In this document: positions 21,523-56,204 of the stretch, piece by piece
Numbering within the stretch: position 1 is the stretch's first letter
Layout of the letters: every line of letters begins with the position of its first letter
NCBI GenBank assembly: GCA_963921275.4
Contig: OZ001293.3
Location: forward strand, 6,720,001 to 6,784,000
DNA length: 64,000 bases
From: an uncultured Hormoscilla sp.
Lineage (GTDB): Bacteria > Cyanobacteriota > Cyanobacteriia > Cyanobacteriales > Desertifilaceae
Direction: 5' to 3'
The notes under the pieces: generated by a model
Seen by the model: the letters and a program-made list of their open reading frames with translations, nothing else
Told to the model about the DNA's origin: nothing
Databases searched by the model: none
Position numbers and translations under genes: made by a program

Positions 21523-23224
21523 ATGAAAATTTCGGAAAAACAATTAAAAAATTACCATAAAAATGGCTTTTTGATTTTAGAAAATTACCTATCAAAAGCA
21601 GAAATAGATATCATCAAAACAGCAGCGGGTAAAAGACTTGAGGAGGACACATACCAGAGAGTTTTAGAAAAAAGTGGAGACACAAAATCGTACCTGGGGA
21701 TACATAAAGCTAATAAAGTGACGGATTGCTTAGGACGGCTTCCTCGACTGGTCGAGCCAGCGAAACAAATTTTAGAGAGTGACGTTTATGTCCATCAATC
21801 TAAGTTGAACCCCAAGGTTGCTTTGCAAGGCGAGCAACTAGAATGGCATACGGATTTCTGGTACTGGCAGAGAGAGGATGGTATGCCAACGCCTCGGGCA
21901 GTCACTGCTGGGATTTTCTTGGATAACGTCAATGAGTTTGTGCGATTCGTTCTAGCCTAACGTGGTCAAACACGGAACGCTAGCCCGGTTTCATTAGCCG
22001 GGAACTCTGACCGCATGGGGGTTAAATTCCCCTCCCCCCAGGTACGGGGGTGACACCGGTCCTCGGTGCTACGAAGCGACATCATCGTGGTGCTAAGCGA
22101 GGACTCAAATGTAGGATAACTGGCAGCCTAAGCCGGTGACGCCGCTAGGAAAGATATCCAAGGTTAGAGCAGGCAAACATGTGCAAGCCTCGTTATAAGG
22201 AACCAGCGAAATAAGGCTATATGCGCTGGCCTAAAAAGGAAATGGTAGCTAGTATTAGTTTTAGACTCTGGCTAATATAGTACTCAAATAGCTCCCGGGG
22301 TATAGTGTGGACCTAAAGGTATCGCGAAATGTTGTTAGGGAACGAAGTAACCTCTCGTGTGCTGTCCATCAGGACAAGTTAGATGTTAAGCGCAAGCCAC
22401 GGGGGGAGGGATGGCCCAAGAAGCGAATGCCCGGGGTAATTCCTGGGATAACATCTACAGTAATGTAGATGATGCTGGGTAGCCAGCGCTGACGTGGGTC
22501 GGTGATACTAGGAAGCTGCTGGAATGAGTAATCCTAAAAAGCCACGGAACTAATCCGAAACGCAAGTGGAGGATAAGGTATGGATAACTGGTAAAACTGA
22601 CTTGAAAATGGTGATACTAACGGTTATCAGAACAACCACTCGCTAAACCAGGAAAGGGAAGAAAAGACAGGCGGCAAGGGCTAACGGAAGTAATTCCTAT
22701 TAAGTCTACCTATGAAAAGGGCCTAGTACCCAGTAGCCGGATGCGGTGAAAATCGCAAGTCCGGTTCCTCAAGGGAGGGTCGGGAAGCGATTCCCGGCTC
22801 GACCCCATCCAATGGTCCAATGCTAATAATTCCGGGTTCTCATAACCAGTCAGCTCAATTAGAAGGCAACAACCCGTCTTCTTTGAGGGCAGAGAGCAGC
22901 TCCGAACGGGACGAAAAAGAACCTTTTTGGATGCAGTCAGTGATTCCAAAATACCCAATAGATAAGGATGCTCTTGCTAGAGTTATTGCCGAGTGCGGCA
23001 TTGTCTCGGTCAAGGGAACAGCCGGATTGGTTATATTCTTCCACAGTTGCGTGCTGCACGCAGCATTGTGCAATATGTCGCCGTGGGATCGATATGCTAT
23101 TTTTATTAGCTATAACAGTATTGAGAATAGTCTTATCAAGGCTGGAAGACCTCGTCCGGCATTCATCGCAGAATCTGAATTCAGTCCTATAGTCACAGTG
23201 TCGGATAGAGCTTTGTTAGAATAA
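21523..23224 (+). CDS. PhyH-family Fe/2OG dioxygenase (L-proline trans-4-hydroxylase/EctD-like) with a group II intron; exons 21523-21939 and 22811-23224 (about 276 aa)
   Basis: VYVHQSKLNPK...WHTDFWYWQREDGMP; splicing restores IFLDNVNEF|NGPMLIIPGSH; second His in FFHSCVLH. Confidence 0.9.
21940..22810 (+). mobile_element. ORF-less group II intron, copy 3 (871 nt)
   Basis: GTGCG start; candidate EBS1 loop AGACTC 22263-22268; domain V 22734-22767; domain VI to ...GACCCCATCC. Confidence 0.95.
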
Positions 23225-23257: not shown

Positions 23258-24887
23258 ATGGATTATCAGAAGACAATAAAACAAGCAAAACACAAGATCG
23301 AACCTCTTAAGCCAGATCGGTTCGTTAAAATTTCCGATCGCTCGGATAAATGTGACTTGTCCTCGTCCAGTTGGCGGTCCCTGATGAAAAATTCGTGCCT
23401 ACAGACATGGAAAGGGATGCTTCACCTAAAAGGGCCTGTGCGATTCGTTCTAGCCTAACGTGGTCAAACACGGAACGCTAGCCCGGTTTCATTAGCCGGG
23501 AACTCTGACCGCATGGGGGTTAAATTCCCCTCCCCCCAGGTACGGGGGTGACACCGGTCCTCGGTGCTACGAAGCGACATCATCGTGGTGCTAAGCGAGG
23601 ACTCAAATGTAGGATAACTGGCAGCCTAAGCCGGTGACGCCGCTAGGAAAGATATCCAAGGTTAGAGCAGGCAAACATGTGCAAGCCTCGTTATAAGGAA
23701 CCAGCGAAATAAGGCTATATGCGCTGGCCTAAAAAGGAAATGGTAGCTAGTATTAGTTTTAGACTCTGGCTAATATAGTACTCAAATAGCTCCCGGGGTA
23801 TAGTGTGGACCTAAAGGTATCGCGAAATGTTGTTAGGGAACGAAGTAACCTCTCGTGTGCTGTCCATCAGGACAAGTTAGATGTTAAGCGCAAGCCACGG
23901 GGGGAGGGATGGCCCAAGAAGCGAATGCCCGGGGTAATTCCTGGGATAACATCTACAGTAATGTAGATGATGCTGGGTAGCCAGCGCTGACGTGGGTCGG
24001 TGATACTAGGAAGCTGCTGGAATGAGTAATCCTAAAAAGCCACGGAACTAATCCGAAACGCAAGTGGAGGATAAGGTATGGATAACTGGTAAAACTGACT
24101 TGAAAATGGTGATACTAACGGTTATCAGAACAACCACTCGCTAAACCAGGAAAGGGAAGAAAAGACAGGCGGCAAGGGCTAACGGAAGTAATTCCTATTA
24201 AGTCTACCTATGAAAAGGGCCTAGTACCCAGTAGCCGGATGCGGTGAAAATCGCAAGTCCGGTTCCTCAAGGGAGGGTCGGGAAGCGATTCCCGGCTCGA
24301 CCCCATCCACAGAAATCGCACTTTACCCGATGCTTCTATACGAGATTCAGCCAAAAACGATTCTCGAAATTGGTGCTTTCACTGGTGGCTGCGCGGTTTG
24401 GCTGGCCGATCTTCTGGATGTGTTGTAGATTGAAGGTTGTATCTACTCTGTCGATATCGATCTTTCACTCCTTGAGGAGAAAGCAAAAACTGACTCTAGA
24501 ATTCATTTTGTGGAGGGAGATTGCAATAACATTCAAGCAGCTTTTCCTCCAGACTTGCTTGCTAAGCTCGCTCATCCTTGGCTTTTGGTTGAAGATGCGC
24601 ATGTAAACACAATCGGAGTCGTTGAATATATTCACAATAATGGTCTCCAGACTGGAGACTATCTTATTATTGACGACACCAACAAACTGCAGATAGAATC
24701 ATGGGGAAGTTTGGGGGAAGATGGGGAAAATAGATTGGAAGCTGTAGAACAAGGGAAGCAAAAGATAGATGAATTGAAAGCTTGGTTAATGCTTCACTCA
24801 GATGAGTATTTAATTGATACTTACTATCAAGACATGTATGGCTATAACGGAGCTAGGAGTTCAAATTATATTCTCAAAAGAGTCTAA
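23258..24887 (+). pseudogene. CmcI-like methyltransferase paralog with a group II intron (exons 23258-23437, 24309-24887) and an in-frame TAG at 24426-24428
   Basis: Spliced junction WKGMLHLKGP|TEIALYPMLL aligns without gaps to WKGVLLEKDPMQIAAYPMLL of 15384-16139. Confidence 0.88.
23438..24308 (+). mobile_element. ORF-less group II intron, copy 4 (871 nt)
   Basis: Same sequence and boundaries as copies 1-3. Confidence 0.95.
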
Positions 24888-28629: not shown

Positions 28630-29034
28630 GAAGTTAACCGCAAAGATGTCCTGCAACTGCTACGGGAAATACAATATTACTAGCGCAGTCGCCGCATTCG
28701 TCAAGGACATGCCCGCAAACGCCTGCAAGGTAAACCGCCACCGGGTAAAGTACCCTACGGATACAAGCGGGGTAAAAATAGCTATGCGATCGATCGGGCG
28801 GCGGCGCCAGTAGTGAAGGATTTTTTTGCACAATTTCTGCTGTATGGTTCTTTGCGGGGTGCGGTGCGCTATTTGGAGAAGAGATATGGCAAGAAGATAT
28901 CGGTTTCTACAGGACGGCGGTGGCTGACTAACCCCGTGTATCGGGGGGATACGGCTTTCCGAGATGGTGAGATTATCTCGGATACCTATGTAGCAATTAT
29001 TTTACGAGAAGAGGCGGCCCAGGTAGTAAATTAG
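28630..29034 (+). pseudogene. Fragment of a cyanobacterial large serine recombinase-like gene
   Basis: RIRQGHARKRLQGKPPPGKVPYGYKRG...FLLYGSLRGAVRYL...WLTNPVYRG; no N-terminus, premature stop. Confidence 0.7.
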
Positions 29035-29106: not shown

Positions 29107-32100
29107 CTAGGTCGGTAGGAGAGGAGTGCTATTCTGATCGCTCACGTAAATCTTTGAAATCCCCTGTAGGGTGACCAGGGTGTCCCTTTCAAAGTTAATC
29201 AAGGTATCTAGGCCCTGATAGACGTGAGCCAAATCTACCGTTCCGGAAAAATCGCGTCCAGCCCGATCGCGTTCAGCCCCGTCCGTATAATCTTCAAAGT
29301 CTATGATAGTACCCATCATGTCCGACTCCAGAACAAAAATATTGGCCTCTGATCCTTCGTAGAGACGATCGCTTCCATGGTTTCCGTAGACGCGATCTCT
29401 TCCCTCCCTGCCGATCAGAGTGTCCTCCTCCTCCTTCTCAAAGAGTGATAAAGTTAGGGGTTGGGGGTTGAGAGTTAGGGATTGACGAGTATTGCTGAAG
29501 TTAAGGTCGGTAGGAGAGGAGTTGACATTGTTGACATTAATAGTAAAAGCCTCCGAGTAACTAAGCCCACCAGCATCAGTAGTCTGGACGCGGATGCTGT
29601 AACTGGACTGGGTCTCAAAGTCAGGGGAACTGTTAATTTGCAGTGAGTTCCCTTCTATGGTGAAGGCGTCGTTATCATCGGCACCAGCGCCTCCGACTAA
29701 CTGGTAGGTAAAGGTATCGGAAGAGTCAGGATCGGTAGTTGAGAAAGTCCCTACGACTGCATTATCAGGGGAGTTAGAATCAATGCTGCTGCTGCTAAGG
29801 ACTAGGTCGGTAGGAGACTCGCCGACATCGTTGACATTAATAGTCAAGACCTCCTCAAAACTATTACTAGCAGAGTCAGTAGTCTGGACGCGGAGGCTGT
29901 AACTGGACTGAGTCTCAAAGTCCAAAGAACTGTTAGTTAGCAGTTGGTCCCCTACTATAGTAAAGGCATTGTTGCCCGATCCAAGCATGTAGGTAAAGCT
30001 ATCTCCCTCGTCGGGGTCAGTAGTAGACAAAGTCCCACAACTGCACCCAATGGAGAGTTAGAATCAATGCTGCTGCTGCTAAGGACTAGGTCGGTAGGAG
30101 ACTCGCCGACATCGTTGACGCTAATAGTCAAGGCTTCTGAGTAACTGTTCCCAGTAGAGTCAGTAGTCTGGACGCCGATGCTGTAACTCGATTTTCTCTC
30201 AAAGTCAGGGGAACTGTTAATTTGCAGTGAGTTCCCTTCTATGGTGAAGGCGTCGTTATCATCGGCACCAGCGCCTCCGACTAACTGGTAGGTAAAGGTA
30301 TCGGAAGAGTCAGGATCGGTAGTTGAGAAAGTCCCTACGACTGCATTATCAGGGGAGTTAGAATCAATGCTGCTGCTGCTAAGGACTAGGTCGGTAGGAG
30401 ACTCGCCGACATCGTTGACATTAATAGTCAAGACCTCCTCAAAACTATTACTAGCAGAGTCAGTAGTCTGGACGCGGAGGCTGTAACTGGACTGAGTCTC
30501 AAAGTCCAAAGAACTGTTAGTTAGCAGTTGGTCCCCTACTATAGTAAAGGCATTGTTGCCCGATCCAAGCATGTAGGTAAGCTATCTCCCTCGTCGGGGT
30601 CAGTAGTAGACAAAGTCCCCACAACTGCACCCAATGGAGAGTTAGAATCAATGCTGCTGCTGCTAAGGACTAGGTCGGTAGGAGACTCGCCGACATCGTT
30701 GACGCTAATAGTCAAGGCTTCTGAGTAACTGTTCCCAGTAGAGTCAGTAGTCTGGACGCCGATGCTGTAACTCGATTTTATCTCAAAGTCAGGGGAACTG
30801 TTAATTTGCAGTGAGTTCCCTTCTATGGTGAAGGCGTCGTTATCATCGGCACTAGCGCCTCCGATTAACTGGTAGGTAAAGGTATCGGAAGAGTCAGGAT
30901 CGGTAGTTAAGAAAGTCCCTACGACTGCATTATCAGGGGAGTTAGAATCAATGCTGCTGCTGCTAAGGACTAGGTCGGTAGGAGAGGAGTTGACATTGTT
31001 GACATTAATAGTAAAAGCCTCCGAGTAACTAAGCCCACCAGCATCAGTAGTCTGGACGCGGATGCTGTAACTGGACTGAGTCTCAAAGTCCAAAGAACTG
31101 TTAGTTAGCAGTTGGTCCCCTACTATAGTAAAGGCATTGTTGCCGGAGACAAGCATGTAGGTAAAGCTATCTCCCTCGTTGGGGTCGGTAGTAGAGAAAG
31201 TCCCTACGACTGCACCCAATGGAGAGTTAGAATCAATGCTGCTGTTGCTGAGTTCTAGATCGGTAGGAGGGGAGTTCTCTATAACAATGTCAAAGGTATC
31301 TGTCACTTCAGATTTCGCTCTGTCGATGGCGGTTACCGTCACGGTAAAGGTGTCTGCGGTAGTAGGGATACCGCTGATAACTCCCTGAGAGTTGATCGTT
31401 ACGCCCCCTGGTAAACCGGTAGCTGTGTAATTGTCGATGTTGTTATTGATGTCGCCGAAATTTGCGCTAATGTCTATGTTGAGGTTATTACCTAGCAAGA
31501 GTTGGACGTCGGGAATCTCGGTTAAAACATAAGGGGGGTTTTCCAATCGCTTTGAGGCACTCAAATCTAGAACCTCTTGGGGGATGCTGCCAGTCAGTTG
31601 GTTGTCGGACAGCTGGAGAAACTCCAAATTGGAAAGATTCCCTAACTCCGTCGGGATGCTGCCAGTCAGTTGGTTGTCGGACAGCTGGAGAAACTCCAAA
31701 TTGGAAAGATTCCCTAACTCCGTCGGGATGCTGCCAGTCAGTCGGTTTCTGTCCAGCTGGAGATCCTTCAAATTGGAAAGATTCCCTAACTCCGTCGGGA
31801 TGCTGCCAGTCAGTTGGTTGGAGTTCAGCTGGAGAAGTTGCAAATTAGAAAGATTCCCTAACTCCGTCGGGATGCTGCCAGTCAGTTGGTTGGAGAACAG
31901 CTGGAGATCCTCCAAATTGGAAAGATTCCCTAACTCCGTCGGGATGCTGCCAGTCAGTTGGTTGTCGGACAGCTGGAGAAACTCCAAATTGGAAAGATTC
32001 CCTAACTCCGTCGGGATGCTGCCAGTCAGTTGGTTGTCGGACAGCAAGAGATTCTCCAAATTGGAAAGATTCCCTAACTCCGTCGGGATGCTGCCAGTCA

Positions 32101-33017
32101 AGTTGGTTGGAGGACAGCCGGAGATTCTCCAAATTGGAAAGATTCCCTAACTCCGTCGGGATGCTGCCAGTCAGTTGGTTGGAGAACAGCCGGAGATCCT
32201 CCAAATTGGAAAGATTCCCTAACTCCGTCGGGATGCTGCCAGTCAGTCGGTTGTTGTTCAGCCAGAGCGACTCCAAATTGGAAAGATTCCCTAACTCCGT
32301 CGGGATGCTGCCAGTCAGTTGGTTGAAGCTTAGGATGAGCCTTATCACCCTGTCGCTAGTTACCGTCACTCCATGCCAACCATTAACAACAGAAGCTTCG
32401 GGGGGAATTGCGCTGTTGAAATTCCAGTCCCGCCAGCCTGTATTGCTCCTCCAAGAAACCCCATTGGTGCTTTGATAGAGAGCCCTTAAGGCCTGATACT
32501 CCTGCTGGGAGATCAATATGCCCCCATAGGCCATCTGAGCTTCTGCGGACAATGCTAAGGGAGTTTTCATCCCCGGAGTTCGCCACTCCAACTTCCAATT
32601 TCCGCCCCGGGCTGCTGCCCCTGTCCGGGTAGTAGAGGCGGCGAGGGATGCCCCGGTTAGGGTCTGTAGCTTAGTCATCAACTCCTCTCCTGCATCTCCG
32701 GCGGCGACGTTACAGCCGTAGAGTAGGAGTTGTTTTACCTTCCACTTCTGCAGGGTAGAGGCGTAATCTCCTAGAGTATCTAAACTCAGTTGGGAGTTTC
32801 CCAGATACAGACAACCAGGGCTGCCGTGGGAAAGTAGGTGCAGGACTTCTGTTTCCTTATGCTGTTGGAGAAGTTCGCTGATCTGTTTGATGCCATCGGA
32901 CCGAAGGTCTAAGAGGAAAGATTTGGCCCCAGGCCGGATGCCGTCTATAAGCTGCTGGTAGTTTTCTAGGGAGGCATCCACTACTACGATGGTGTTGGTA
33001 AAAGATTTATGCTTCAT
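29107..33017 (-). pseudogene. DUF4347-LRR-Ig-cadherin repeat surface protein (chimera of paralogs B and A) with three single-base frameshifts
   Basis: ATG 33017 MKHKSFTN; HLLSHGSPG, LLLYGCNVAAG (DUF4347); 10 full 24-aa LRR units; 3 x 585-bp double-cadherin units; indels near 32101, 30580, 30035. Confidence 0.85.
31582..32325 (-). repeat. 72-bp LRR-coding tandem array
   Basis: Near-invariant scaffold of about 50 bp (AAATTGGAAAGATTCCCTAACTCCGTCGGGATGCTGCCAGTCAGTYGGTT) alternating with variable segments of about 21 bp. Confidence 0.95.
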
Positions 33018-33782: not shown

Positions 33783-35075
33783 GTGACCACGACCCCTATT
33801 CGTCCGGCGTCTTCCGCATGCTCTTGTCCTGAAGGACTCGGCATGTTCCAGACACCGCCAGATAATCTAGTCGCTGTACCCCAACGCCCCGATCGCCTGG
33901 GACGTTTTGGCAAGTTTGGCGGCAAGTACGTACCGGAAACCCTAATGCCAGCTTTGCTGGAGCTGGAACGGGCGTTTCACCAATACCGCCAGGATCCAGA
34001 TTTTCAACAAGAACTGCAAGGGCTACTCAAAGATTACGTGGGACGGCCCAGTCCTCTGTACTTCGCGGAACGCCTGAGCGCCTATTATACTATACTTGGC
34101 AGTACCCCGCAAATTTATCTGAAGCGGGAGGACTTGAATCACACGGGCGCTCATAAAATCAATAATGCCCTAGCTCAGGCCCTGCTAGCCAAGCGGATGG
34201 GCAAGCAGCGGATCATTGCTGAGACTGGTGCTGGGCAGCATGGGGTGGCGACAGCAACGGTTTGCGCCCGGTTTGGACTGGACTGTGTCATCTATATGGG
34301 CGTCCATGATATGGAACGCCAAGCGCTGAACGTGTTTAGAATGGGACTGTTGGGAGCGGAGGTGCGACCGGTGGAAGCGGGAACGGGTACCCTCAAGGAT
34401 GCTACGTCGGAAGCTATTCGGGACTGGGTGACGAATGTGGAGACTACCCATTACATCTTGGGTTCTGTAGCTGGCCCCCATCCTTACCCGATGATGGTGC
34501 GGGACTTCCATGCAGTTATTGGTCAGGAAACTCGCGCTCAAGCAATGGCTTTATGGGGCGAACTGCCCGATCTTCTCCTAGCTTGCGTGGGCGGCGGTTC
34601 TAATGCCATGGGGTTGTTCCATGAGTTTGTCGAAGAGCGTGAGGTGCGACTGATCGGCGTTGAGGCGGCGGGTGCAGGAGTTGATACTGATAAACATGCT
34701 GCTACCCTGACTCGGGGACGAGTAGGAGTCTTGCATGGGGCCATGAGTTATCTGTTACAAGATGAAGATGGTCAAGTGGTGGAGGCCCACTCGATTAGTG
34801 CTGGTCTGGATTATCCTGGCGTTGGTCCGGAACATAGTTATCTCCAAGATACGGGTCGGGCCGAGTATCATAGCGTGACCGACCAGCAGGCTGTGGATGC
34901 TTTTGAGCTGCTGTCTCGCTTAGAGGGCATTATCCCAGCTCTGGAAACCGCTCACGCGATCGCCTATTTGCCTACTCTCTGCCAGCAGCTGACTGGTAGT
35001 CCCCGCATTGTCATTAATTGTTCGGGGCGCGGCGATAAAGATGTGCAGACTGTAGCTAAATTTGCTAGCCATTAA
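33783..35075 (+). CDS. trpB: Tryptophan synthase beta chain
   Basis: [62 protein letters not shown]; exact start uncertain. Confidence 0.97.
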
Positions 35076-43012: not shown

Positions 43013-43459
43013 CTATACTATCTCTTCCGATAGGAGTGCCGTCGAGTACAAGCCCAAATCATCGCACATCCGCGTCATTTCTGCCAAACCCTGCCGCCGT
43101 AACTCATCCCACTTCTGCTTATAAGCCATCAGATCTTCAAACCGAATTCGGCGCTCCAAACCATATCCAGTAGAAGGAATTTCCCCATCTTTCAGCAGTT
43201 GCACCAGATGCTGTCGCGGCACATCAAGTAACTTAGTAGCTTCCCAAATTGGTAATGGATCGTGAAAGATAACAGTCATCACGCCATTGCCCCGCGCTAA
43301 CTGATACAACTGCTGACGCAGCAAGCGCAATACAGACGCAGGCAGTTCAATTTCTTCACCCTCTGGGGTGACAAATCGTGGCAACTGCGAGCCATTACTC
43401 AGTCCCTTCAACAACTGGGACAATGAAGCCAAGTCAGCGAGTTCTCGTTCTGTTGCCAC
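43013..43459 (-). CDS. Excisionase-family HTH protein, paralog 3 (N-terminus trimmed)
   Basis: [30 protein letters not shown] start abuts the stop of paralog 4. Confidence 0.75.
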   Translation of the reverse strand: MATERELADLASLSQLLKGLSNGSQLPRFVTPEGEEIELPASVLRLLRQQLYQLARGNGVMTVIFHDPLPIWEATKLLDVPRQHLVQLLKDGEIPSTGYGLERRIRFEDLMAYKQKWDELRRQGLAEMTRMCDDLGLYSTALLSEEIV

Positions 43460-43522
43460 TACAGGCCGAACTCTTGACTCATTCGAGCCAACTCTTCTAT
43501 ACCCCGCCGATGCAACTCAGAC

Positions 43523-43687
43523 GGATGTGGTCATAAGTAGTTGATAGCCAAGTGCATCGCCCGATACATGTATATAGCCCGCGCAGGCGGGCTTTGTTCA
43601 TGTAGCCGGGCCCCTCGTTCCCACGGCTCCGCCTGGGAACGGGTTCGGGCGGCGAGGTCTCCTACCAACGGGCGCAAGACCACACCC
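43523..43687. mobile_element. 165-bp MITE with the end of the 3828-4802 element
   Basis: GGATGTGGTCATAAGTAGTTGATAGCC ... GACCACACCC; 9-bp TSD AACTCAGAC. Confidence 0.85.
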
Positions 43688-43987: not shown

Positions 43988-44111
43988 AGGAGCATCTCAG
44001 TTTTGTAATTTAGCCCGCGCAGGCGGGCTTTGTTCGTGTAGCCGGGCCCCTCGTTCCCACGGCTCCGCCTGGGAACGGGTTCGGGCGGCGACGCAAATAT
44101 GAGATGCACCT
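43988..44111. mobile_element. 124-bp MITE
   Basis: AGGAGCATCTCA / TGAGATGCACCT TIR; 8-bp TSD AGTTCTTG; shares an 80-bp core with the 43523 element. Confidence 0.8.
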
Positions 44112-44472
44112 AGTTCTTGTTCTGTTGCCACTATAGGTTCGAGCTTGATGTCACTAGAATTCATCTGCTTACTCAAAATGCGTTTGCTATCTATTCTATA
44201 CCTGTGTTCTGGCGCCAGATGAGTTTTGAACAGGTAAATTTATGACTTTAACACCACCGACAGCAGACCCAAGATTGCTCTATTAATTAAACTAAAAAAG
44301 AGCAGTCGCCAGCGGGGCACAAAACAATGAGGATGAAAGTACACAAGCAGGAAAACTTGGTGTTGACAAACCAAAGTTCGGAAGTTCTAGTCGAGCGAGC
44401 CTGGCCAATAATAGCCGCCCTACCCATTCCTGTAAGTGACAGAAATCACATTTAGTCGGTGACGCTCCATAC

Positions 44473-44567
44473 CCGAGCCGAAGTCGAGCCGAAGTCGAGC
44501 CGAAGTCGAGCCGAGGTCGAGCCGAGACCGAGCCATTAGCGAGCCATATACGAGCCGTAGTCGAGCG
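44473..44567. repeat. 11-bp tandem repeat GTCGAGCCGAA (longer array at 55379-55506)
   Basis: Direct inspection. Confidence 0.8.
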
Positions 44568-45263
44568 ATAACCCCGCCTAATGGACTCCCTCCTTACCTG
44601 GAGCCTGCTCTCAGCCCATTCTCAACGCACTGGACCATATCCCCACCCTAGCCTCGCCATAATATATATACCCTCGCCAGGGAGCCCTGGGCGACAACCG
44701 GCACCCCATACCCCAATAAACAAAGCTTAAGTGTAGCAACCTTTTTAACAAATAGAAACCCCCATAAATGAACGCGATCGCCTGAATAAAAGCTCTCTTA
44801 TACTTAGAGTAATTTCCAATATAAATTCTGACAAAGCAAGCTGTACTAGCTGAAATATTTACCGGTTAAGAGAGCAAATATTGCTCTACTCTATCAACCA
44901 CTTTTAATCGCACCCATTCTCCCATTCTCTACTATCAGAGAAAGCAATGTTATCGCTTGGCTCCAATTGCCACCAGTAATGTTGTAAATTGGGTTTCGTG
45001 CTGCCATGCCGGAGATGCCCTGTTATGCCGGAGATGCACGGGTTGGGTTTCGTTCTCCAGACCCAACCTACGAACGGATCCATCCCTATTTTGTGATTAA
45101 GCCCGCCCGGACTTAGTTCATGGCCGGAGATGCACGGGTTGGGTTTCGTTCTCCAGACCAAACCCACGAACGGGTGCATTGAAGAGAGGAAATTACAGGC
45201 TTGAGTTTAGCAACTTGTTCGCAAATGGTATCATACTAAGGAACCTCACATTTGTCACAAACT

Positions 45264-45496
45264 ATGCATCCAGCCAGTGGCGTCATTATCTGTTTAGCTT
45301 ATATTCTGGGCTTGCTATCTACCGCCAGCCCTTGGGGAGGGTATACAGTCCTAGTTCTGGGAGTCGCCGCCGCCGCGTGTAGATTCTGGCGCATGGGACC
45401 GAAACCTGGTATCTGGCTAACAGCAGGACTGGTAGGATTGTTAGCAAGTTTCTATTTGCCAATGCGGGTGCCCCAACCCCTGGACAATGATATCAG
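45264..45496 (+). pseudogene. comEC: 5' fragment of comEC truncated at the duplication junction
   Basis: Near-identical to 56205-56437 up to PLDNDI. Confidence 0.9.
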
Positions 45497-46647: not shown

Positions 46648-47052
46648 GAAGTTAACCGCAAAGATGTCCTGCAACTGCTACGGGAAATACAATATTACTA
46701 GCGCAGTCGCCGCATTCGTCAAGGACATGCCCGCAAACGCCTGCAAGGTAAACCGCCACCGGGTAAAGTACCCTACGGATACAAGCGGGGTAAAAATAGC
46801 TATGCGATCGATCGGGCGGCGGCGCCAGTAGTGAAGGATTTTTTTGCACAATTTCTGCTGTATGGTTCTTTGCGAGGTGCGGTGCGCTATTTGGAGAAGA
46901 GATATGGCAAGAAGATATCGGTTTCTACAGGACGGCGGTGGCTGACTAACCCCGTGTATCGGGGGGATACGGCTTTCCGAGATGGTGAGATTATCTCGGA
47001 TACCTATGTAGCAATTATTTTACGAGAAGAGGCGGCCCAGGTAGTAAATTAG
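46648..47052 (+). pseudogene. Second copy of the serine recombinase-like fragment
   Basis: Near-identical to 28630-29034. Confidence 0.7.
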
Positions 47053-47124: not shown

Positions 47125-50100
47125 CTAGGTCGGTAGGAGAGGAGTGCTATTCTGATCGCTCACGTAAATCTTTGAAATCCCCTGTAGGGTGACCAGGGTG
47201 TCCCTTTCAAAGTTAATCAAGGTATCTAGGCCCTGATAGACGTGAGCCAAATCTACCGTTCCGGAAAAATCGCGTCCAACCCGATCGCGTTCAGCCCCGT
47301 CCGTATAATCTTCAAAGTCTATGATAGTACCATCATGTCCGACTCCAGAACAAAAATATTGGCCTCTGATCCTTCGTAGAGACGATCGCTTCCATGGTTT
47401 CCGTAGACGCGATCTCTTCCATGGTTTCCGTAGACGCGATCTCTTCCCTCCCTGCCGATCAGAGTGTCCTCCTCCTCCTTCTCAAAGAGTGATAAAGTTA
47501 GGGGTTGGGGGTTGAGAGTTAGGGATTGACGAGTATTGCTGAAGTTAAGGTCGGTAGGAGAGGAGTTGACATTGTTGACATTAATAGTAAAAGCCTCCGA
47601 GTAACTAAGCCCACCAGCATCAGTAGTCTGGACGCGGATGCTGTAACTGGACTGGGTCTCAAAGTCAGGGGAACTGTTAATTTGCAGTGAGTTCCCTTCT
47701 ATGGTGAAGGCGTCGTTATCATCGGCATCAGCGCCTCCGACTAACTGGTAGGTAAAGGTATCGGAAGAGTCAGGATCGGTAGTTGAGAAAGTCCCTACGA
47801 CTGCATTATCAGGGGAGTTAGAATCAATGCTGCTGCTGCTAATGACTAGGTCGGTAGGAGACTCGCCGACATCGTTGACATTAATAGTCAAGACCTCCTC
47901 AAAACTATTACTAGCAGAGTCAGTAGTCTGGACGCGGAGGCTGTAACTGGACTGAGTCTCAAAGTCCAAAGAACTGTTAGTTAGCAGTTGGTCCCCTACT
48001 ATAGTAAAGGCATTGTTGCCCGATCCAAGCATGTAGGTAAAGCTATCTCCCTCGTCGGGGTCAGTAGTAGACAAAGTCCCCACAACTGCACCCAATGGAG
48101 AGTTAGAATCAATGCTGCTGCTGCTAAGGACTAGGTCGGTAGGAGACTCGCCGACATCGTTGACGCTAATAGTCAAGGCTTCTGAGTAACTGTTCCCAGT
48201 AGAGTCAGTAGTCTGGACGCCGATGCTGTAACTCGATTTTCTCTCAAAGTCAGGGGAACTGTTAATTTGCAGTGAGTTCCCTTCTATGGTGAAGGCGTCG
48301 TTATCATCGGCACTAGCGCCTCCGACTAACTGGTAGGTAAAGGTATCGGAAGAGTCAGGATCGGTAGTTGAGAAAGTCCCTACGACTGCATTATCAGGGG
48401 AGTTAGAATCAATGCTGCTGCTGCTAATGACTAGGTCGGTAGGAGACTCGCCGACATCGTTGACATTAATAGTCAAGACCTCCTCAAAACTATTACTAGC
48501 AGAGTCAGTAGTCTGGACGCGGAGGCTGTAACTGGACTGAGTCTCAAAGTCCAAAGAACTGTTAGTTAGCAGTTGGTCCCCTACTATAGTAAAGGCATTG
48601 TTGCCCGATCCAAGCATGTAGGTAAAGCTATCTCCCTCGTCGGGGTCAGTAGTAGACAAAGTCCCCACAACTGCACCCAATGGAGAGTTAGAATCAATGC
48701 TGCTGCTGCTAAGGACTAGGTCGGTAGGAGACTCGCCGACATCGTTGACGCTAATAGTCAAGGCTTCTGAGTAACTGTTCCCAGTAGAGTCAGTAGTCTG
48801 GACGCCGATGCTGTAACTCGATTTTCTCTCAAAGTCAGGGGAACTGTTAATTTGCAGTGAGTTCCCTTCTATGGTGAAGGCGTCGTTATCATCGGCACTA
48901 GCGCCTCCGACTAACTGGTAGGTAAAGGTATCGGAAGAGTCAGGATCGGTAGTTGAGAAAGTCCCTACGACTGCATTATCAGGGGAGTTAGAATCAATGC
49001 TGCTGCTGCTAATGACTAGGTCGGTAGGAGACTCGCCGACATCGTTGACATTAATAGTCAAGACCTCCTCAAAACTATTACTAGCAGAGTCAGTAGTCTG
49101 GACGCGGAGGCTGTAACTGGACTGAGTCTCAAAGTCCAAAGAACTGTTAGTTAGCAGTTGGTCCCCTACTATAGTAAAGGCATTGTTGCCCGATCCAAGC
49201 ATGTAGGTAAAGCTATCTCCCTCGTCGGGGTCAGTAGTAGACAAAGTCCCCACAACTGCACCCAATGGAGAGTTAGAATCAATGCTGCTGCTGCTAAGGA
49301 CTAGGTCGGTAGGAGACTCGCCGACATCGTTGACGCTAATAGTCAAGGCTTCTGAGTAACTGTTCCCAGTAGAGTCAGTAGTCTGGACGCCGATGCTGTA
49401 ACTCGATTTTCTCTCAAAGTCAGGGGAACTGTTAATTTGCAGTGAGTTCCCTTCTATGGTGAAGGCGTCGTTATCATCGGCACTAGCGCCTCCGACTAAC
49501 TGGTAGGTAAAGGTATCGGAAGAGTCAGGATCAGTAGTTGAGAAAGTCCCTACGACTGCATTATCAGGGGAGTTAGAATCAATGCTGCTGCTGCTAAGGA
49601 CTAGGTCGGTAGGAGAGGAGTTGACATTGTTGACATTAATAGTAAAAGCCTCCGAGTAACTAAGCCCACCAGCATCAGTAGTCTGGACGCGGATGCTGTA
49701 ACTGGACTGAGTCTCAAAGTCCAAAGAACTGTTAGTTAGCAGTTGGTCCCCTACTATAGTAAAGGCATTGTTGCCGGAGACAAGCATGTAGGTAAAGCTA
49801 TCTCCCTCGTTGGGATCGGTAGTAGAGAAAGTCCCTACGACTGCACCCAATGGAGAGTTAGAATCAATGCTGCTGTTGCTGAGTTCTAGATCGGTAGGAG
49901 GGGAGTTCTCTATAACAATGTCAAAGGTATCTGTCCCTCGATTTCTCGCTCCGTCGATGGCGGCTACCGTCACGGTAAAGGTGTCTGCGGTAGTAGGGGT
50001 ACCGCTGATAACTCCCCGACTGTTGATCGTTACGCCCCCTGGTAAACCGGTAGCTGTGTAATTGTCGATGTTGTTATTGATGTCGCCGAAATTTGCGCTA

Positions 50101-51290
50101 ATGTCTATGTTGAGGTTATTACCTAGCAAGAGTTGGACGTCGGGAATCTCGGTTAAAACATAAGGGGGGTTTTCCAATCGCTTTAAGACCCTCAAATCTA
50201 GAACCTCTTGGGGGATGCTGCCAGTCAGTTGGTTGTCGGACAGCTGGAGAAACTCCAAATTGGAAAGATTCCCTAACTCCGTCGGGATGCTGCCAGTCAG
50301 TTGGTTGGAGTACAGCTGGAGACGAATCAAATTGGAAAGATTCCCTAACTCCGTCGGGATGCTGCCAGTCAGTTGGTTGGAGTACAGAAAGAGAAATCGC
50401 AAATTGGAAAGATTCCCTAACTCCGTCGGGATGCTGCCAGTCAGTTGGTTGGAGTACAGCTGGAGACGAATCAAATTGGAAAGATTCCCTAACTCCGTCG
50501 GGATGCTGCCAGTCAGTTGGTTGTCGGACAGCCAGAGATCCTCCAAATTGGAAAGATTCCCTAACTCCGTCGGGATGCTGCCAGTCAGTTGGTTGTCGGA
50601 CAGCAAGAGCAAAGTCACCCTGCCGTTAGCTACCGTCACCCCACGCCAACCATTAACAACAGAAGCATCGGGGGGAGTTGGGCTGTTGAAATTCCAGTCC
50701 CGCCAGCCTGTATTGTTCGTCCAAGAAGCCCCATTGGTGCTTTGATAGAGAGCCCTTAAGGCCTGATACTCCTGCTGGGAGATGGTCAATATGCCCCCAT
50801 AGGCCATCTGAGCTTCTGCGGACAATGCTAAGGGAGTTTTCATCCCCGGAGTTCGCCACTCCAACTTCCAATTTCCGCCCCGGGCTGCTGCCCCTGTCCG
50901 GGTAGTAGAGGCGGCGAGGGATGCCCCGGTCAGGGCCTGTAGCTTAGTCATCAACTCCTCTCCTGCATCTCCGGCGGCGACGTTACAGCCGTAGAGTAGG
51001 AGTTGTTTTACCTTCCACTTCTGCAGGGTAGAGGCGTAATCTCCTAGAGGATCTAAACTCAGTTGGGAGTTTCCCAGATACAGACAGCCAGGGCTGCCGT
51101 GGGAGAGTAGGTGCAGAACTTCTGTTTCTTTATGCTGTTGGAGAAGTTCGCCGATCTGTTTGATGCCATCGGACCGAAGGTCTAAGAGGAAAGATTTGGC
51201 CCCAGGCCGGATGCCGTCTATAAGCTGCTGGTAGTTTTCTAGGGAGGCATCCACTACTACCATAGTGTTGGCATTGGTATTATGTTTCAT
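47125..51290 (-). CDS. DUF4347-LRR-Ig-cadherin repeat surface protein, paralog A (ORF 47319-51290; 1-bp deletion near 47330 shifts the tail)
   Basis: 1323-aa ORF; DUF4347, 5 full LRR units, 4 x 585-bp double-cadherin units, RTX-like GxxGxDxLY tail. Confidence 0.88.
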
Positions 51291-51928: not shown

Positions 51929-53396
51929 TCAATTAACCACAGTGAAATCATCGACATTAATCAGGGTCTCATCAATCCCCGGAAGGGTGGCGATGGTTTT
52001 CGATTCAAAATTAATCCAGGTATCGAGGCCCTAAGAACCTCCTGCTAGCCTGATAAAGTCCGTGCCATCTTCAAAGTCTATGATAGTACCCATCATGTCC
52101 GACTCCAGAACAAAAATATTGGCCTCTGATCCTTCGTAGAGACGATCGCTTCCATGGTTTCCGTAGACGCGATCTCTTCCCTCCCCGCCGATCAGAGTGT
52201 CCTCCTCCTCCTTCTCAAAGAGTGATAAAGTTAGGGGTTGTGGGTTGAAAGTTAGGGGTTGACGAGTATTGCTGAAGTTAAGGTCAGTAGGAGACTCGGC
52301 AACATTGTTCACATTAATAATCAAAGCCTCCGAGTAACTGGCCCCAGTAACGTCAATAGTCTGAACGCGGACGCTGTAACTCGATCTCATCTCCAAAGCC
52401 GGAGAACTATTAATTAGCAATTGGTCCCCTACTATAGTGAAAGCAGCGTTATCATCCTCACCAAAACCAGAGATTAACCCGTAGGTAAAAGTATTTCCCC
52501 CGTCCGGATCGCTAGTTCCGAAAGTCCCCACGATCGCACCCACACGGGAATTAGAATTAATGCTGCCATTACTAAGAACTATATCAGTAGGAGACTCAGC
52601 AACATTGTTCACATTAATAATCAAAGCCTCCAAGTAACTGTTCCCAGTCGAGTCGGTAGTCTGAACGAATATCCTGTAAATCTCCTGAGTCTCAAAATCC
52701 GGAGAACTGTTAATTCGCAGTTGGTCCCCCACTATAGTGAAAGCAGCATTATCATCGTCACCCTCGCCCGAGACTAACTGGTAAGTAAAAGTATCTCCAT
52801 TATCGGGATCGCTAGTAGACAAAGTCCCCACAACTGCACCCTCAGGGGAATCTTCATTGATGCTGCTGCTGCTAAGGACTAGGTCGGTAGGAGACTCGCC
52901 GACATCGTTGACGTTAATAATCAAGACCTCCGAGTAACTGGCCCCAGTCGAGTCAGTAGTCTGGACGCGGAGGCTGTAACTCGACTGAGTCTCAAAGTCA
53001 GGAGAACTGTTAATTCGCAGTTGGTTCCCTACTATGGTGAAGGCATTGTTGCCCGAGACAAGCATGTAGGTAAAGCTATCTCCCTCGTCGGGGTCAGTAG
53101 TTCCGAAAGTCCCCACGACAGTATTGGCTGGGGAGTTTTCGTTGATATTGATGAGTATCTAAACTCAATTGGGAGTTTCCCAGATACAGACAGCCAGGGC
53201 TGCCGTGGGAAAGTAGGTGCAGGACTTCTGTTTCCTTATGCTGTTGGAGAAGTTCGCTGATCTGTTTGATGCCATCGGACCGAAGGTCTAAGAGGAAAGA
53301 TTTGGCCCCAGGCCGGATGCCGTCTATAAGCTGCTGGTAGTTTTCTAGGGAGGCATCCACTACTACGATGGTGTTGGTAAAAGATTTATGCTTCAT
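51929..53396 (-). pseudogene. Paralog B with internal deletion (partial DUF4347 fused out of frame to cadherin domains)
   Basis: MKHKSFTN...LSLDT| junction at about 53152 into cadherin repeats; TAG at 52031 before the C-terminal DFTVVN*. Confidence 0.8.
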
Positions 53397-53428
53397 TTTT
53401 TGGTTGCTGAATTGATTTTTCTGTCGAG

Positions 53429-53757
53429 GTGCCGGTTCGCATTGCTGGGCTTCAAGACGTTTCAAAACCCGTTCGTCAGCATCATAAGCTTTGTCTGCGA
53501 GTAACGCATCAGCAGCATAGACAAATAAGCGGTTATCCTTAGCTGTCCCCCCACATAACCCTCCCGACCTGGCAATAGATCCCTGATTCTCTCCCACCGG
53601 TCATCTCTTAAAGCATAGCGACGCATTTCTAAAATTCTCCTGCTCTAACCTTTACCCTCTTATATAACACCAATATATCCTGGTTGTCAACTCAATCATC
53701 TTGTTATATATTTTTGGTGGGGACCCATATCGTTAATCTAACTGATGACACGCCCTA
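53429..53757 (-). mobile_element. IS5-family remnant, second copy
   Basis: Matches 33050-33346 with about 30 extra bp. Confidence 0.78.
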
Positions 53758-53903: not shown

Positions 53904-54496
53904 TTAGAATGGGACTGTTGGGAGCGGAGGTGCGACCGGTGGAAGCGGGAACGGGTACTCTCAAGGATGCTACGTCGGAAGCTATTCGGGACTGGGTGAC
54001 GAATGTGGAGACTACCCATTACATCTTGGGTTCTGTAGCTGGCCCCCATCCTTACCCGATGATGGTGCGGGACTTCCATGCAGTTATTGGTCAGGAAACT
54101 CGCGCTCAAGCAATGGCTTTATGGGGCGAACTGCCCGATCTTCTCCTAGCTTGCGTGGGCGGCGGTTCTAATGCCATGGGGTTGTTCCATGAGTTTGTCG
54201 AAGAGCGTGAGGTGCGACTGATCGGCGTTGAGGCGGCGGGTGCAGGAGTTGATACTGATAAACATGCTGCTACCCTGACTCGGGGACGAGTAGGAGTCTT
54301 GCATGGGGCCATGAGCTATCTGTTACAAGATGAAGATGGTCAAGTGGTGGAGGCCCACTCGATTAGTGCTGGTCTGGATTATCCTGGCGTTGGTCCGGAA
54401 CATAGTTATCTCCAAGATACGGGTCGGGCCGAGTATCATAGCGTGACCGACCCGCAGGCTGTGGATGCTTTTGAGCTGCTGTCTCGCTTAGAGGGC
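53904..54496 (+). pseudogene. trpB: Internal fragment of trpB (copy of 34336-34928)
   Basis: Near-identical DNA; both ends removed by deletions. Confidence 0.9.
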
Positions 54497-55082
54497 TCCA
54501 AACCATATCCAGTAGAAGGAATTTCCCCATCTTTCAGCAGTTGCACCAGATGCTGTCGCGGCACATCAAGTAACTTAGTAGCTTCCCAAATTGGTAATGA
54601 ATCGTGAAAGATAACAGTCATCACGCCATTGCCCCGCGCTAACTGATACAACTGCTGACGCAGCAAGCGCAATACAGACGCAGGCAGTTCAATTTCTTCA
54701 CCCTCTGGGGTGACAAATCGTGGCAACTGCGAGCCATTACTCAGTCCCTTCAACAACTGGGACAATGAAGCCAAGTCAGCGAGTTCTTGTTCTGTTGCCA
54801 CTACAGGCCGAACTCTTGACTCATTCGAGCCAACTCTTCTATACCCCGCCGATGCAACTCAGACGGATGTGGTCATAAGTAGTTGATAGCCAAGTGCATC
54901 GCCCGATACATGTATATAGCCCGCGCAGGCGGGCTTTGTTCATGTAGCCGGGCCCCTCGTTCCCACGGCTCCGCCTGGGAACGGGTTCGGGCGGCGACGC
55001 AAATATGAGATGCACCTAGTTCTTGTTCTGTTGCCACTATAGGTTCGAGCTTGATGTCACTAGAATTCATCTGCTTACTCAA
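54495..55082 (-). pseudogene. Remnants of excisionase-HTH paralogs 3 and 4 with a hybrid MITE (about 54865-55017)
   Basis: Matches 43153-44176 with the segment between the two MITE cores deleted. Confidence 0.8.
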
Positions 55083-56204
55083 AATGCGTTTGCTATCTAT
55101 TCTATACCTGTGTTCTGGCGCCAGATGAGTTTTGAACAGGTAAATTTATGACTTTAACACCACCGACAGCAGACCCAAGATTGCTCTACCAATTAAACTA
55201 AAAAAGAGCAGTCGCCAGCGGGGCACAAAACAATGAGGATGAAAGTACACAAGCAGGAAAACTTGGTGTTGACAAACCAAAGTTCGGAAGTTCTAGTCCA
55301 GCGAGCCTGGCCCATAATAGCTGCCCTACCCATTCCTGTAAGTGACAGAAATCACATTTAGTCGGTGACGCTCCATACCCGAGCCGAGGTCGAGCCGAAG
55401 TCGAGCCGAAGTCGAGCCGAAGTCGAGCCGAGGTCGAGCCGAGACCGAGCCATTAGCGAGCCGAGACCGAGCCATTAGCGAGCCATATACGAGCCGTAGT
55501 CGAGCGATAACCCCGCCTAATGGACTCCCTCCTTACCTGGAGCCTGCTCTCAGCCCATTCTCAACGCACTGGACCATATCCCCACCCTAGCCTCGCCATA
55601 ATATATATACCCTCGCCAGGGAGCCCTGGGCGACAACTGGCACCCCATACCCCCAATAAACAAAGCTTAAGTGTAGCAACCTTTTTAACAAATAGAAACC
55701 CCCATAAATGAACGCGATCTCCTGAATAAAAGCTCTCTTATACTTAGAGTAATTTCCAATATAAATTCTGACAAAGCAAGCTGTACTAGCTGAAATATTT
55801 ACCGGTTAAGAGAGCAAATATTGCTCTACTCTATCAACCACTTTTAATCGCACCCATTCTCCCATTCTCTACTATCAGAGAAAGCAATGTTATCGCTCGG
55901 CTCCAATTGCCACCAGTAATGTTGTAAATTGGGTTTCGTGCTGCCATGCCGGAGATGTCCTGCCATGCCGGAGATGCACGGGTTGGGTTTCGTTCTCCAG
56001 ACCCAACCTACGAACGGATCCATCCCTATTTTGTGATTAAGCCCGCCCGGACTTAGTTCATGGCCGGAGATGCACGGGTTGGGTTTCGTTCTCCAGACCA
56101 AACCCACGAATGGGTGCATTGAAGAGAGGAAATTACAGGCTTGAGTTTAGCAACCTTGTTTGCAAATGGTATCATACTAAGGAACCTCACACCTGTCACA
56201 AACT

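What the first reader, a model, noticed from the sequence alone, without database searches (positions are those of the whole stretch)
31582..32325. LRR arrays with a DNA-invariant scaffold and hypervariable binding-face codons (VLR-like diversification)
Seen: each 72-bp unit is almost identical, including synonymous sites, except the xxLxLxx codons: ESLWLNN, EDLRLFS, ENLRLSS, ENLLLSD, EFLQLSD, EDLQLFS, QLLQLNS, KDLQLDR here, and EDLWLSD, IRLQLYS, RFLFLYS in paralog A (50213-50600). Changes fall mostly at codon positions 1-2 with the third base kept (NNT, NNG, NNC, NNC; a few exceptions). Unit number differs (10 vs 5) and identical cassettes recur. Established: these positions form the concave ligand-binding face; LxGxIPxELGxL is the plant-type LRR. 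Inference: a diversifying surface receptor/adhesin on a cadherin stalk, shaped by cassette shuffling plus strong positive selection. The codon pattern also resembles DGR-type mutagenesis of AAY codons, but no RT or template repeat is in this window.
Basis: partly seen in the sequence, partly recalled or inferred. Interest (0 to 1): 0.7.

Follow-up and report, generated by a model that had tools for sequence, protein, structure and literature searches.

The report
Fast-evolving binding face, frozen LRR scaffold
A cyanobacterium related to sponge symbionts carries about 300 leucine-rich repeats in some 33 adhesin-like gene loci (many broken); over half share an almost identical DNA framework but differ at five codons of the predicted binding face, likely because copying between repeats plus selection for new surfaces keeps remixing them, as in fungal immune-type receptors.

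Summary
Observation confirmed: the window's 15 LRR units differ at 4 of 855 non-face bases but 70 of 225 face bases. The arrays belong to about 297 units at about 33 loci in a Hormoscilla-related cyanobacterium. Face codons lie on the predicted concave strand and show excess amino-acid change (within-array pN/pS 1.84, 95% 1.6-2.1). Paralogues 98.7-99.8% identical in the stalk share 1 face block. Linkage decays inside the 27-nt face, so mixing is likely finer than whole cassettes. The DGR option fails: no DGR-type RT, Avd or template found, no adenine bias. Best reading: concerted evolution plus diversifying selection, working like fungal het-e/NWD repeats, in probably secreted bacterial adhesins. 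Ligand, secretion and within-population switching are untested. The scan noted this family three times before elsewhere in this genome and similar patterns in other genomes. New variant of a known kind; interest 0.5.

The parts
29107..33017 (-). Gene B: DUF4347, N-cap, 10 LRR, putative Ig (He_PIG), about 6 cadherin repeats, RTX-like tail; broken in the assembly by three 1-bp indels
32514..32990 (-). DUF4347 domain of B
   Evidence: Pfam PF14252 E 2.5e-52; tblastn coordinates
32319..32513 (-). N-terminal cap of the LRR head, ending in a first, also variable strand (IRLILSFNQ)
31598..32318 (-). Array of ten 72-bp plant-type LRR units; codons 16, 17, 19, 21, 22 of each unit hypervariable
32101..32101 (-). 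Extra base at the unit 3/4 junction (frameshift; real or assembly error unresolved)
31280..31597 (-). C-cap and putative Ig domain (He_PIG) of B
   Evidence: PF05345 E 1.6e-12
29504..31269 (-). Cadherin-repeat stalk of B (about six repeats) with 1-bp losses at about 30578 and 30035
29107..29503 (-). C-terminal tail with a weak RTX nonapeptide; candidate type I secretion signal (inferred)
   Evidence: PF00353 20.1 bits, below the cut-off of 23
47319..51290 (-). Paralogue A, 1323 aa: DUF4347, N-cap, 5 LRR, He_PIG, 8 cadherin, RTX; last about 65 codons cut by a 1-bp loss near 47330
50229..50588 (-). Five-unit LRR array of A; shares only the last unit with B
52031..53597 (-). Paralogue C: half DUF4347 joined out of frame to cadherin and RTX, no LRR head (likely deletion derivative)

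Best explanation
The array is the LRR head of a probably secreted, stalked adhesin-like protein, one of about 33 related loci whose repeats are likely kept near-identical by frequent copying within and between genes while diversifying selection likely favours change at five codons of the predicted ligand-binding face. Shown: architecture, scaffold invariance, excess amino-acid change at the face, units shared between distant loci, heads differing between paralogues with near-identical stalks. Inferred: (1) the 45-bp invariant scaffold is the homology on which unequal crossover and short gene conversion act, adding, deleting and swapping units; (2) conversion tracts often end inside the 27-bp face, so two-codon sub-blocks recombine combinatorially; (3) point mutations arise across about 300 copies and those that change the face are retained, which keeps each scaffold family's founder third base while positions 1-2 saturate; (4) broken copies can still act as donors; (5) the protein is exported by type I secretion and the head meets a variable partner in the sponge habitat (host surface, other microbes or phage). 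No dedicated diversifying enzyme is needed.
For: Non-face pS 0.043 versus face pN 0.59 in 139 distinct main-scaffold units. Without a scaffold filter, within-array face pN/pS is 1.84 (bootstrap 1.6-2.14 over 41 arrays) and face pN is 8.9 times non-face pS, while exposed convex-side residues have pN 0.05. A codon model gives omega far above 1 for the face (2 delta lnL about 50 against omega = 1) and 0.40 for other codons. 18 of 18 single-base face differences between distinct units are non-synonymous, against 8 of 14 elsewhere. L18 and L20 inside the face keep their codon in 166 and 164 of 168 units, arguing against a local mutation hotspot. Model strands fall on D-L-W-L-S-type segments; fold hits are PGIP and plant receptor ectodomains. 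The nearest unit lies at another locus for 74 of 166 units (same locus 66, tie 26). The two-unit run QLLQLNS-KDLQLDR, including a synonymous TCT marker, recurs at C1:6423485. A versus C1:2456084: 99.8% over 600 nt of stalk, heads of 5 and 10 units, 1 shared block; B versus A 98.7%, 1 shared. Association between face sites falls with distance (rho -0.32, 3 of 720 codon-order permutations as strong). The main scaffold occurs 170 times in G000 and 1, 0, 0, 0 times in four congeners. An HlyD-type gene passes the cut-off.
Against: Recombination and a tree built from the same sites inflate omega; the value 41 is not a real estimate. Face pS is itself raised (0.28-0.33), partly through multi-base differences, so the face pN/pS is only about 1.8. 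Linkage decay could also come from epistasis between neighbouring residues. The family is damaged in this assembly: 4 of 33 loci have DUF4347, all units and a tail in one frame (crude motif test, A counted though its end is cut), 8 of 33 have units in more than one frame, and 6 DUF4347 copies carry an antisense intron. Selection may therefore be past rather than current. At least five of B's eight distinct face blocks occur letter for letter in contigs of two other samples, so turnover is not instantaneous. The RTX signal is weak (25.1 bits in A, 20.1 in B). The single-sequence model has mean pLDDT 62.5 (80-96 in the LRR part).
Confidence: 0.7

Rival explanations
1. Programmed, VLR-like or antigenic-variation-like assembly: a dedicated mechanism copies units or sub-unit patches from silent copies into expressed heads within a population, making a combinatorial repertoire in real time.
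For: Linkage decay inside the face; 19 of 37 unit pairs that differ in one face codon differ by 2-3 bases; many broken copies as possible donors; a 65-nt exact LRR piece plus a 37-nt RTX piece patched in frame, with 2-6 nt microhomologies, into two copies of another gene; the codons around the face (AAT TTG, CTC, CTG, AAC) are shared by three scaffold families that differ at synonymous sites elsewhere.
Against: Genes carry full arrays; no single expression site or incomplete germline gene was seen. No intact recombinase beside the arrays, only a broken serine-recombinase fragment 3' of B and A. Face blocks persist across samples. Ordinary recombination among about 300 copies can give the same patterns.
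Confidence: 0.12
2. Same evolutionary mechanism but opposite purpose: the face varies to escape recognition (host immune receptors, phage, grazers) rather than to gain new binding.
For: Surface-exposed position on a long stalk; no signalling domain; high loss rate of whole genes.
Against: Escape should also vary the exposed convex side, N-domain and stalk, yet convex pN is 0.05 and stalks are 95-99.8% identical. The face is rich in W, Y, R, D, N, S, as binding surfaces are (own knowledge).
Confidence: 0.1
3. Recent tandem amplification of one unit with merely relaxed constraint or a local mutation hotspot at the face; no positive selection.
For: Face pS is higher than scaffold pS; the family is partly decayed.
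Against: Neutral change would put face pN near non-face pS (0.04-0.06), not 0.5-0.6. Four-fold sites of L18 and L20 inside the face are nearly invariant. Only 1 of 297 units has a stop in the face, at a truncation.
Confidence: 0.05
4. A diversity-generating retroelement mutates adenines of a template copy of the unit.
For: Third bases are kept at four face codons; one congener, G003, holds a DGR remnant.
Against: All 54 RT motif matches are group II intron type; of 28 further RT matches inspected none is DGR-like. No Avd in G000. No A-rich template: best unit has 7 of 10 A at face positions 1-2, and all 9 BLAST hits outside arrays are other pieces. Scaffold adenines vary no more than G or C (1.7%, 1.9%, 1.3%); TTA to TTG is seen in 0 of 141; A is 6% at codon 19 position 1. 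The G003 remnant lies beside a formylglycine-sulfatase/C-lectin-type gene (motif recalled), not an LRR.
Confidence: 0.02

Closest known systems
Podospora het-d/het-e/NWD WD40 repeats and other high-internal-conservation repeats of fungal NLRs (PMC1805685: abstract, outline, section 15; PMC4986451: passages)
   Same: Repeats exchanged within and between paralogues, variable repeat number, positive selection at four to five codons of the interaction surface, inactive copies in the pool.
   Different: LRR instead of WD40/ANK/TPR; probably secreted stalked protein without NACHT or effector domain; bacterium; no RIP; about 33 loci rather than 10.
Ectocarpus ROCO and LRR-kinase LRR exons (PMC3341825: passages)
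   Same: LRR units shuffled between loci with positively selected sites on the concave face.
   Different: There each unit is an exon and the proteins carry GTPase or kinase domains; here units are contiguous and DNA-homogenised in an adhesin-like frame.
Plant LRR receptor ectodomains and PGIP (8ikw, 1ogq, MIK2 8weh)
   Same: 24-residue LxxLxLxxNxLT/SGxIPxxLGxL unit, N-cap, same fold, concave binding face.
   Different: Single-protein repeats there are diverged in the scaffold (plant hit P0099 scaffold identity 0.59).
LRR eukaryotic-like proteins of sponge symbionts including Hormoscilla (PMC6520454: one passage) and bacterial multi-module plant-type LRR proteins
   Same: Same repeat class and taxon; postulated role in bacterium-sponge recognition. 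Okeania P0039 has the same DUF4347-LRR-Ig-cadherin order.
   Different: The passage reports presence only (COG4886), nothing on homogenised scaffolds or selection. Most bacterial relatives tested have saturated synonymous sites (G041 non-face pS 0.73, L093 0.78).
Protochlamydia LGR proteins (PMC2216083: abstract and outline)
   Same: Bacterial paralogue family with 5-18 LRRs that grew by adjacent duplication.
   Different: 28-residue RI-like repeats; the abstract reports no hypervariable face or positive selection.
Agnathan variable lymphocyte receptors (mentioned in PMC3341825 passages; details recalled)
   Same: LRR modules with conserved framework and variable concave face.
   Different: No evidence here of an incomplete germline gene, somatic assembly or a deaminase.

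Membership tests
Diversity-generating retroelement | DGR-type reverse transcriptase | tested here: not met
   93 RT matches; 54 of 54 motif hits group II type; 28 others inspected: intron pieces, one retron-like, one unclassified without TR/VR pair within about 6 kb
Diversity-generating retroelement | Template repeat about 90% identical to the variable region, differing at adenines | tested here: not met
   feature from PMC8632793 passages
Diversity-generating retroelement | A-to-N bias | tested here: not met
   non-face mismatch A 1.7%, G 1.9%, C 1.3%, T 0.15%; TTA kept in 140 of 141
Diversity-generating retroelement | Accessory Avd (in over 70% of DGRs, so not obligatory) | tested here: not met
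   0 matches in G000; 1 of 4 congeners has one
Fungal HIC-repeat NLRs (het-e/NWD type) | High internal repeat conservation (over 85% amino-acid identity over 100 aa in PMC4986451) | tested here: inconclusive
   DNA 92%; protein scaffold 0.96 but face 0.22 in paralogue P0111, about 0.81 overall; exact criterion not computed for B
Fungal HIC-repeat NLRs (het-e/NWD type) | Exchange of repeats within and between family members | tested here: met
   genome-specific scaffold
Fungal HIC-repeat NLRs (het-e/NWD type) | Positive selection at a few codons of the interaction surface | tested here: met
   position on strand
Fungal HIC-repeat NLRs (het-e/NWD type) | Repeat-number polymorphism between strains at one locus | tested here: inconclusive
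   numbers differ between paralogues; unitigs do not give unit order or number
Fungal HIC-repeat NLRs (het-e/NWD type) | STAND NTPase (NACHT/NB-ARC) and N-terminal effector domain | tested here: not met
   Pfam shows DUF4347, LRR, He_PIG, cadherin, RTX only
Variable lymphocyte receptors | Incomplete germline gene filled from flanking cassettes (recalled) | tested here: not met
   loci carry their own arrays between N-cap and Ig domain
Variable lymphocyte receptors | Cell-to-cell (somatic) diversity | not testable with these tools
   only Logan contigs, no raw reads
Plant-specific LRR class | 24-residue LxxLxLxxNxLT/SGxIPxxLGxL consensus and fold | tested here: met
Type I-secreted RTX adhesins | C-terminal RTX nonapeptides and repeated Ig/cadherin stalk | tested here: inconclusive
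   stalk clear; RTX 25.1 bits in A (cut-off 23), 20.1 in B
Type I-secreted RTX adhesins | Type I exporter in the genome | tested here: met
   HlyD-type gene over the cut-off at C1:777916, unlinked; ABC and outer-membrane parts not searched
Type I-secreted RTX adhesins | Actual export and surface display | not testable with these tools
   no expression or proteomic data

The most novel reading that the evidence does not exclude
A sponge-symbiotic cyanobacterium runs a combinatorial, antibody-like surface repertoire. Short DNA patches, down to two codons, are copied between about 300 LRR units by microhomology-guided template switching, perhaps fed by natural transformation (ComEC is in the window) or by its abundant group II intron reverse transcriptases. 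Fixed anchor codons around the face would guide the copying, so that heads differ between filaments within one host and are selected against host or phage ligands.
Probability: 0.12. Interest if true: 0.85.

Novelty: new variant of a known kind. Interest (0 to 1): 0.5.

Why it matters
LRR proteins of sponge symbionts are postulated to mediate host recognition (PMC6520454), but in the passage I read only their presence is reported. A family with a strong, position-specific selection signal on the concave face, and sister genes that differ only in the head, gives ready-made matched pairs for finding the ligand and for testing whether a bacterium uses the repeat-remixing strategy of fungal and algal immune-type receptors. 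The near-constant scaffold with five free positions is also a natural analogue of designed repeat-protein libraries. Limits: the principle is known from eukaryotes, a weaker form is common in bacterial plant-type LRRs, and this particular copy may be dead.

Tried and rejected
DGR: see rivals. Expression: no RNA holder listed, no evidence either way. Read-level heterogeneity: runs X1-X3 and X5 are contigs only, paralogues collapse onto the array, no piece spans it. Bins without cover at 99% (for example 31744-31772) prove nothing, and the frameshift at 32101 could be neither confirmed nor corrected. Assembly error versus decay: 1-bp indels occur at 31 per 121.6 kb (26 in homopolymers) in 140 copies of a non-coding repeat, so about one is expected per 4-kb gene; B has three, A one; unresolved. 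The intron inserted at the same site of six DUF4347 genes was first taken as a sign of gene conversion and then dropped, because the element has about 140 copies with a sequence-specific target and the paralogues offer the same site. The recombinase fragment 3' of B and A is broken and occurs in seven places, not at most loci; not taken as the mechanism. Universal anchor codons across phyla: seen in L100 and partly G042, not in G041, G044, G043, G396; not supported as general. Collection scans were shallow: 8 loci from genome contigs, 4 from metagenome contigs. The omega of 41 is not used as an estimate. Complex prediction was not run because no candidate ligand exists. Literature: ten searches listed no paper describing DNA-homogenised LRR arrays with a selected face in bacteria; one search returned only irrelevant papers, most subscription journals are not covered and no supplements were read.
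Full report
Observation. The stretch is a tandem array of ten 72-bp units on the minus strand (31598-32318), each encoding LTGSIPTELGNLSNLxxLxLxxNQ. Across the 15 units, 4 of 855 non-face bases and 70 of 225 face bases depart from the majority; third bases are kept at codons 17, 19, 21 and 22 but not 16. All four change the length of a short run. Such indels occur once per 3.9 kb in 140 copies of a non-coding repeat, so error and decay cannot be told apart.

Anatomy. B and A read DUF4347, N-cap, LRR array, putative Ig, cadherin repeats (about 6 and 8), weak RTX tail. A third copy at 52031-53597 has no head. An HlyD-type exporter gene exists elsewhere; secretion is inferred. A single-sequence AlphaFold model of A's head (mean pLDDT 62.5, 80-96 over the repeats) puts the strands on the DLWLS, RLQLY and FLFLY segments, and its fold hits are PGIP and plant receptor ectodomains. 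That this strand and the following turn form the concave binding face is established LRR knowledge, also stated in PMC3341825 (passages). Three of six window housekeeping proteins found in the collection cluster at 90% with Hormoscilla proteins; Hormoscilla are sponge symbionts whose LRR proteins are postulated to act in host recognition (PMC6520454, one passage).

Family. Three searches gave 275, 299 and 297 units at 33-34 loci. Three scaffold families cover nearly all (185, 50 and 19 distinct units, 3 others). 168 units lie within two bases of the main 45-bp scaffold; two broken ones were dropped, leaving 166 (141 distinct). That scaffold occurs 170 times in G000 and 1, 0, 0, 0 times in four congeners, although all four hold many related heads (23-109 matches). 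Many loci are damaged: 4 of 33 have DUF4347, all units and a tail in one frame by a crude motif test, 8 of 33 have units in several frames, and six carry an antisense group II intron in DUF4347.

Selection. In main-scaffold units face pN is 0.59 and pS 0.33; the other 19 codons have pN 0.018 and pS 0.043. Because that set was chosen on the scaffold, I repeated the count within all 41 arrays of three or more distinct units without such a filter: face pN/pS 1.84 (bootstrap 1.6-2.14), face pN 8.9 times non-face pS, convex exposed residues pN 0.05. All 18 single-base face differences between distinct units change the residue, against 8 of 14 elsewhere, and the four-fold sites of L18 and L20 inside the face are almost fixed; a local hotspot or mere relaxation does not fit. 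A codon model on one tree prefers omega above 1 for the face (2 delta lnL about 50) and 0.40 elsewhere; recombination inflates this, so only the direction is used. Each scaffold family keeps its own third base at codon 19 (mostly G, C, T), as expected if faces diversified from a family founder at positions 1-2.

Exchange. 18 of 235 distinct face blocks, involving 47 of 297 units, occur at more than one distant locus. B's QLLQLNS-KDLQLDR pair recurs at C1:6423485 in a different array position. The nearest unit is at another locus for 74 of 166. Sister genes differ in the head far more than in the stalk: A and C1:2456084 are 99.8% identical over 600 nt behind the array and 97.6% before it, yet have 5 and 10 units with one shared block; B and A are 98.7% and 96.9% with one shared block. 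Inside the 27-bp face, association between sites falls with distance (codons 16-17 z 10, 21-22 z 5.3, 16-21 z 1.4; rho -0.32, 3 of 720 permutations), and 19 of 37 single-face-codon differences span 2-3 bases. This suggests conversion tracts ending within the face, though epistasis between neighbours is an alternative. Separately, a 65-nt exact LRR piece and a 37-nt RTX piece, whose closest matches lie 2 Mb apart, sit in frame in place of a 57-nt segment in two copies of a related gene family, with 2-6 nt microhomologies. Short-homology patching therefore occurs among these genes, although serial deletions of a lost fused gene could explain part of it.

DGR. The defining parts (PMC8632793 passages) are missing: RT motifs are group II intron type in 54 of 54, none of 28 others is DGR-like, no Avd, no A-rich template, no adenine bias. 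One congener has a DGR remnant next to a non-LRR target.

How general. Of the best 120 of 7976 protein hits, all with six or more distinct units were scored (120 rows, three from this genome, one plant): scaffold identity 0.58-0.96, face 0.07-0.47. A conserved scaffold with a variable face is thus ordinary at protein level. DNA homogenisation is graded: face pN over non-face pS is 8.9 in G000, 4.4 in G003, 2.4 in G004, 1.2 in G002, 0.9 in G041, 1.5 in G042, 2.1 in G396, 6.2 in L100 and 0.8 in L093 (for other genomes only stretches picked from the best hits, several with 1-3 arrays). G000 is the extreme of a continuum. 10 of 400 other genomes of the phylum had a match at E 1e-25 or better, with at most seven candidates scored each.

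Other samples. Only contigs were available. At least five of B's eight distinct face blocks are contained exactly in contigs of X1 or X3, so blocks persist between samples; unit order and within-population variation cannot be read.

Comparison and verdict. It works like the Podospora het-e/NWD system, with concerted evolution within and between paralogues plus positive selection at a few interface codons (PMC1805685 abstract and section 15; PMC4986451 passages), and like Ectocarpus LRR exons. It is a member of neither, having no STAND NTPase and no exon structure. It is not a DGR target, and nothing shows VLR-like programmed assembly. Ten literature searches listed no bacterial description of this pattern; coverage is incomplete and supplements were not read. 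The scan's own notes record this family three times elsewhere in this genome and similar cases in other genomes; these are not independent support. Added here are the within-face linkage decay, the head-versus-stalk contrast, the cross-genome gradient and the patch insertion. New variant of a known kind; interest 0.5; novel case 0.12.

Noticed in passing
G000:C1:2454141-2454242 (+) and C1:3981217-3981116 (-): A 65-nt piece identical to an LRR unit at C1:6388859 plus a 37-nt RTX piece (closest C1:4393684) replace a 57-nt Gly-rich segment, in frame, in two of about 20 copies of another gene family; junctions show 2-6 nt microhomology.
   Followed up: partly
window 5626-6500, 6902-7776, 21939-22812, 23436-24309: 869-bp ORF-less group II intron (RF00029 hits) with about 140 near-identical copies genome-wide, inserted after GGAT in the orientation read; six copies sit antisense at one site of DUF4347 paralogues.
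   Followed up: partly
G000 genome-wide: 93 reverse-transcriptase matches, nearly all group II intron type; one retron-like (C1:1227407) and one unclassified RT (C1:4242457) beside phage-tail-like genes.
   Followed up: partly
window 28684-29028 and about 46700-47046 (+): Broken serine-recombinase fragment (PF07508) directly 3' of both B and A; seven near-identical copies in the genome.
   Followed up: partly
window 53904-54496, 54495-54997, 54911-56437: Patchwork of local duplications: a trpB fragment (99.5% to 34336-34928) joined to copies of 43153-43655 and 44004-45496.
   Followed up: no
L072, L074, L083-L088 (G002): In one congener a single LRR gene with non-homogenised units is present as many identical whole copies, as if carried by a mobile element or collapsed in assembly.
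   Followed up: no
L103 (G003:C502): DGR remnant: Avd, truncated RT start interrupted by a PIN-like gene, and a frameshifted sulfatase-modifying-factor-type target (labels partly recalled).
   Followed up: partly
L100:5235-5670: A metagenome contig with GC-rich codon use holds a six-unit LRR module with the same pattern (non-face pS 0.10, face pN 0.63) and the same TTG, CTC, CTG, AAC anchor codons in most units.
   Followed up: partly
window 56205-58523 (+): Intact ComEC competence gene, a possible route for LRR units from other strains.
   Followed up: no
window 44473-44572 and 55373-55509: 11-bp tandem repeats (CGAGCCGAAGT) and three CRISPR-DR28 Rfam hits at 43575, 44011 and 54917 that do not form an array.
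   Followed up: no
G000:C1:5740540 onward (+): A Gly-rich N-terminal domain replaces DUF4347 in front of a ten-unit LRR head, showing N-domain swapping in the family.
   Followed up: no
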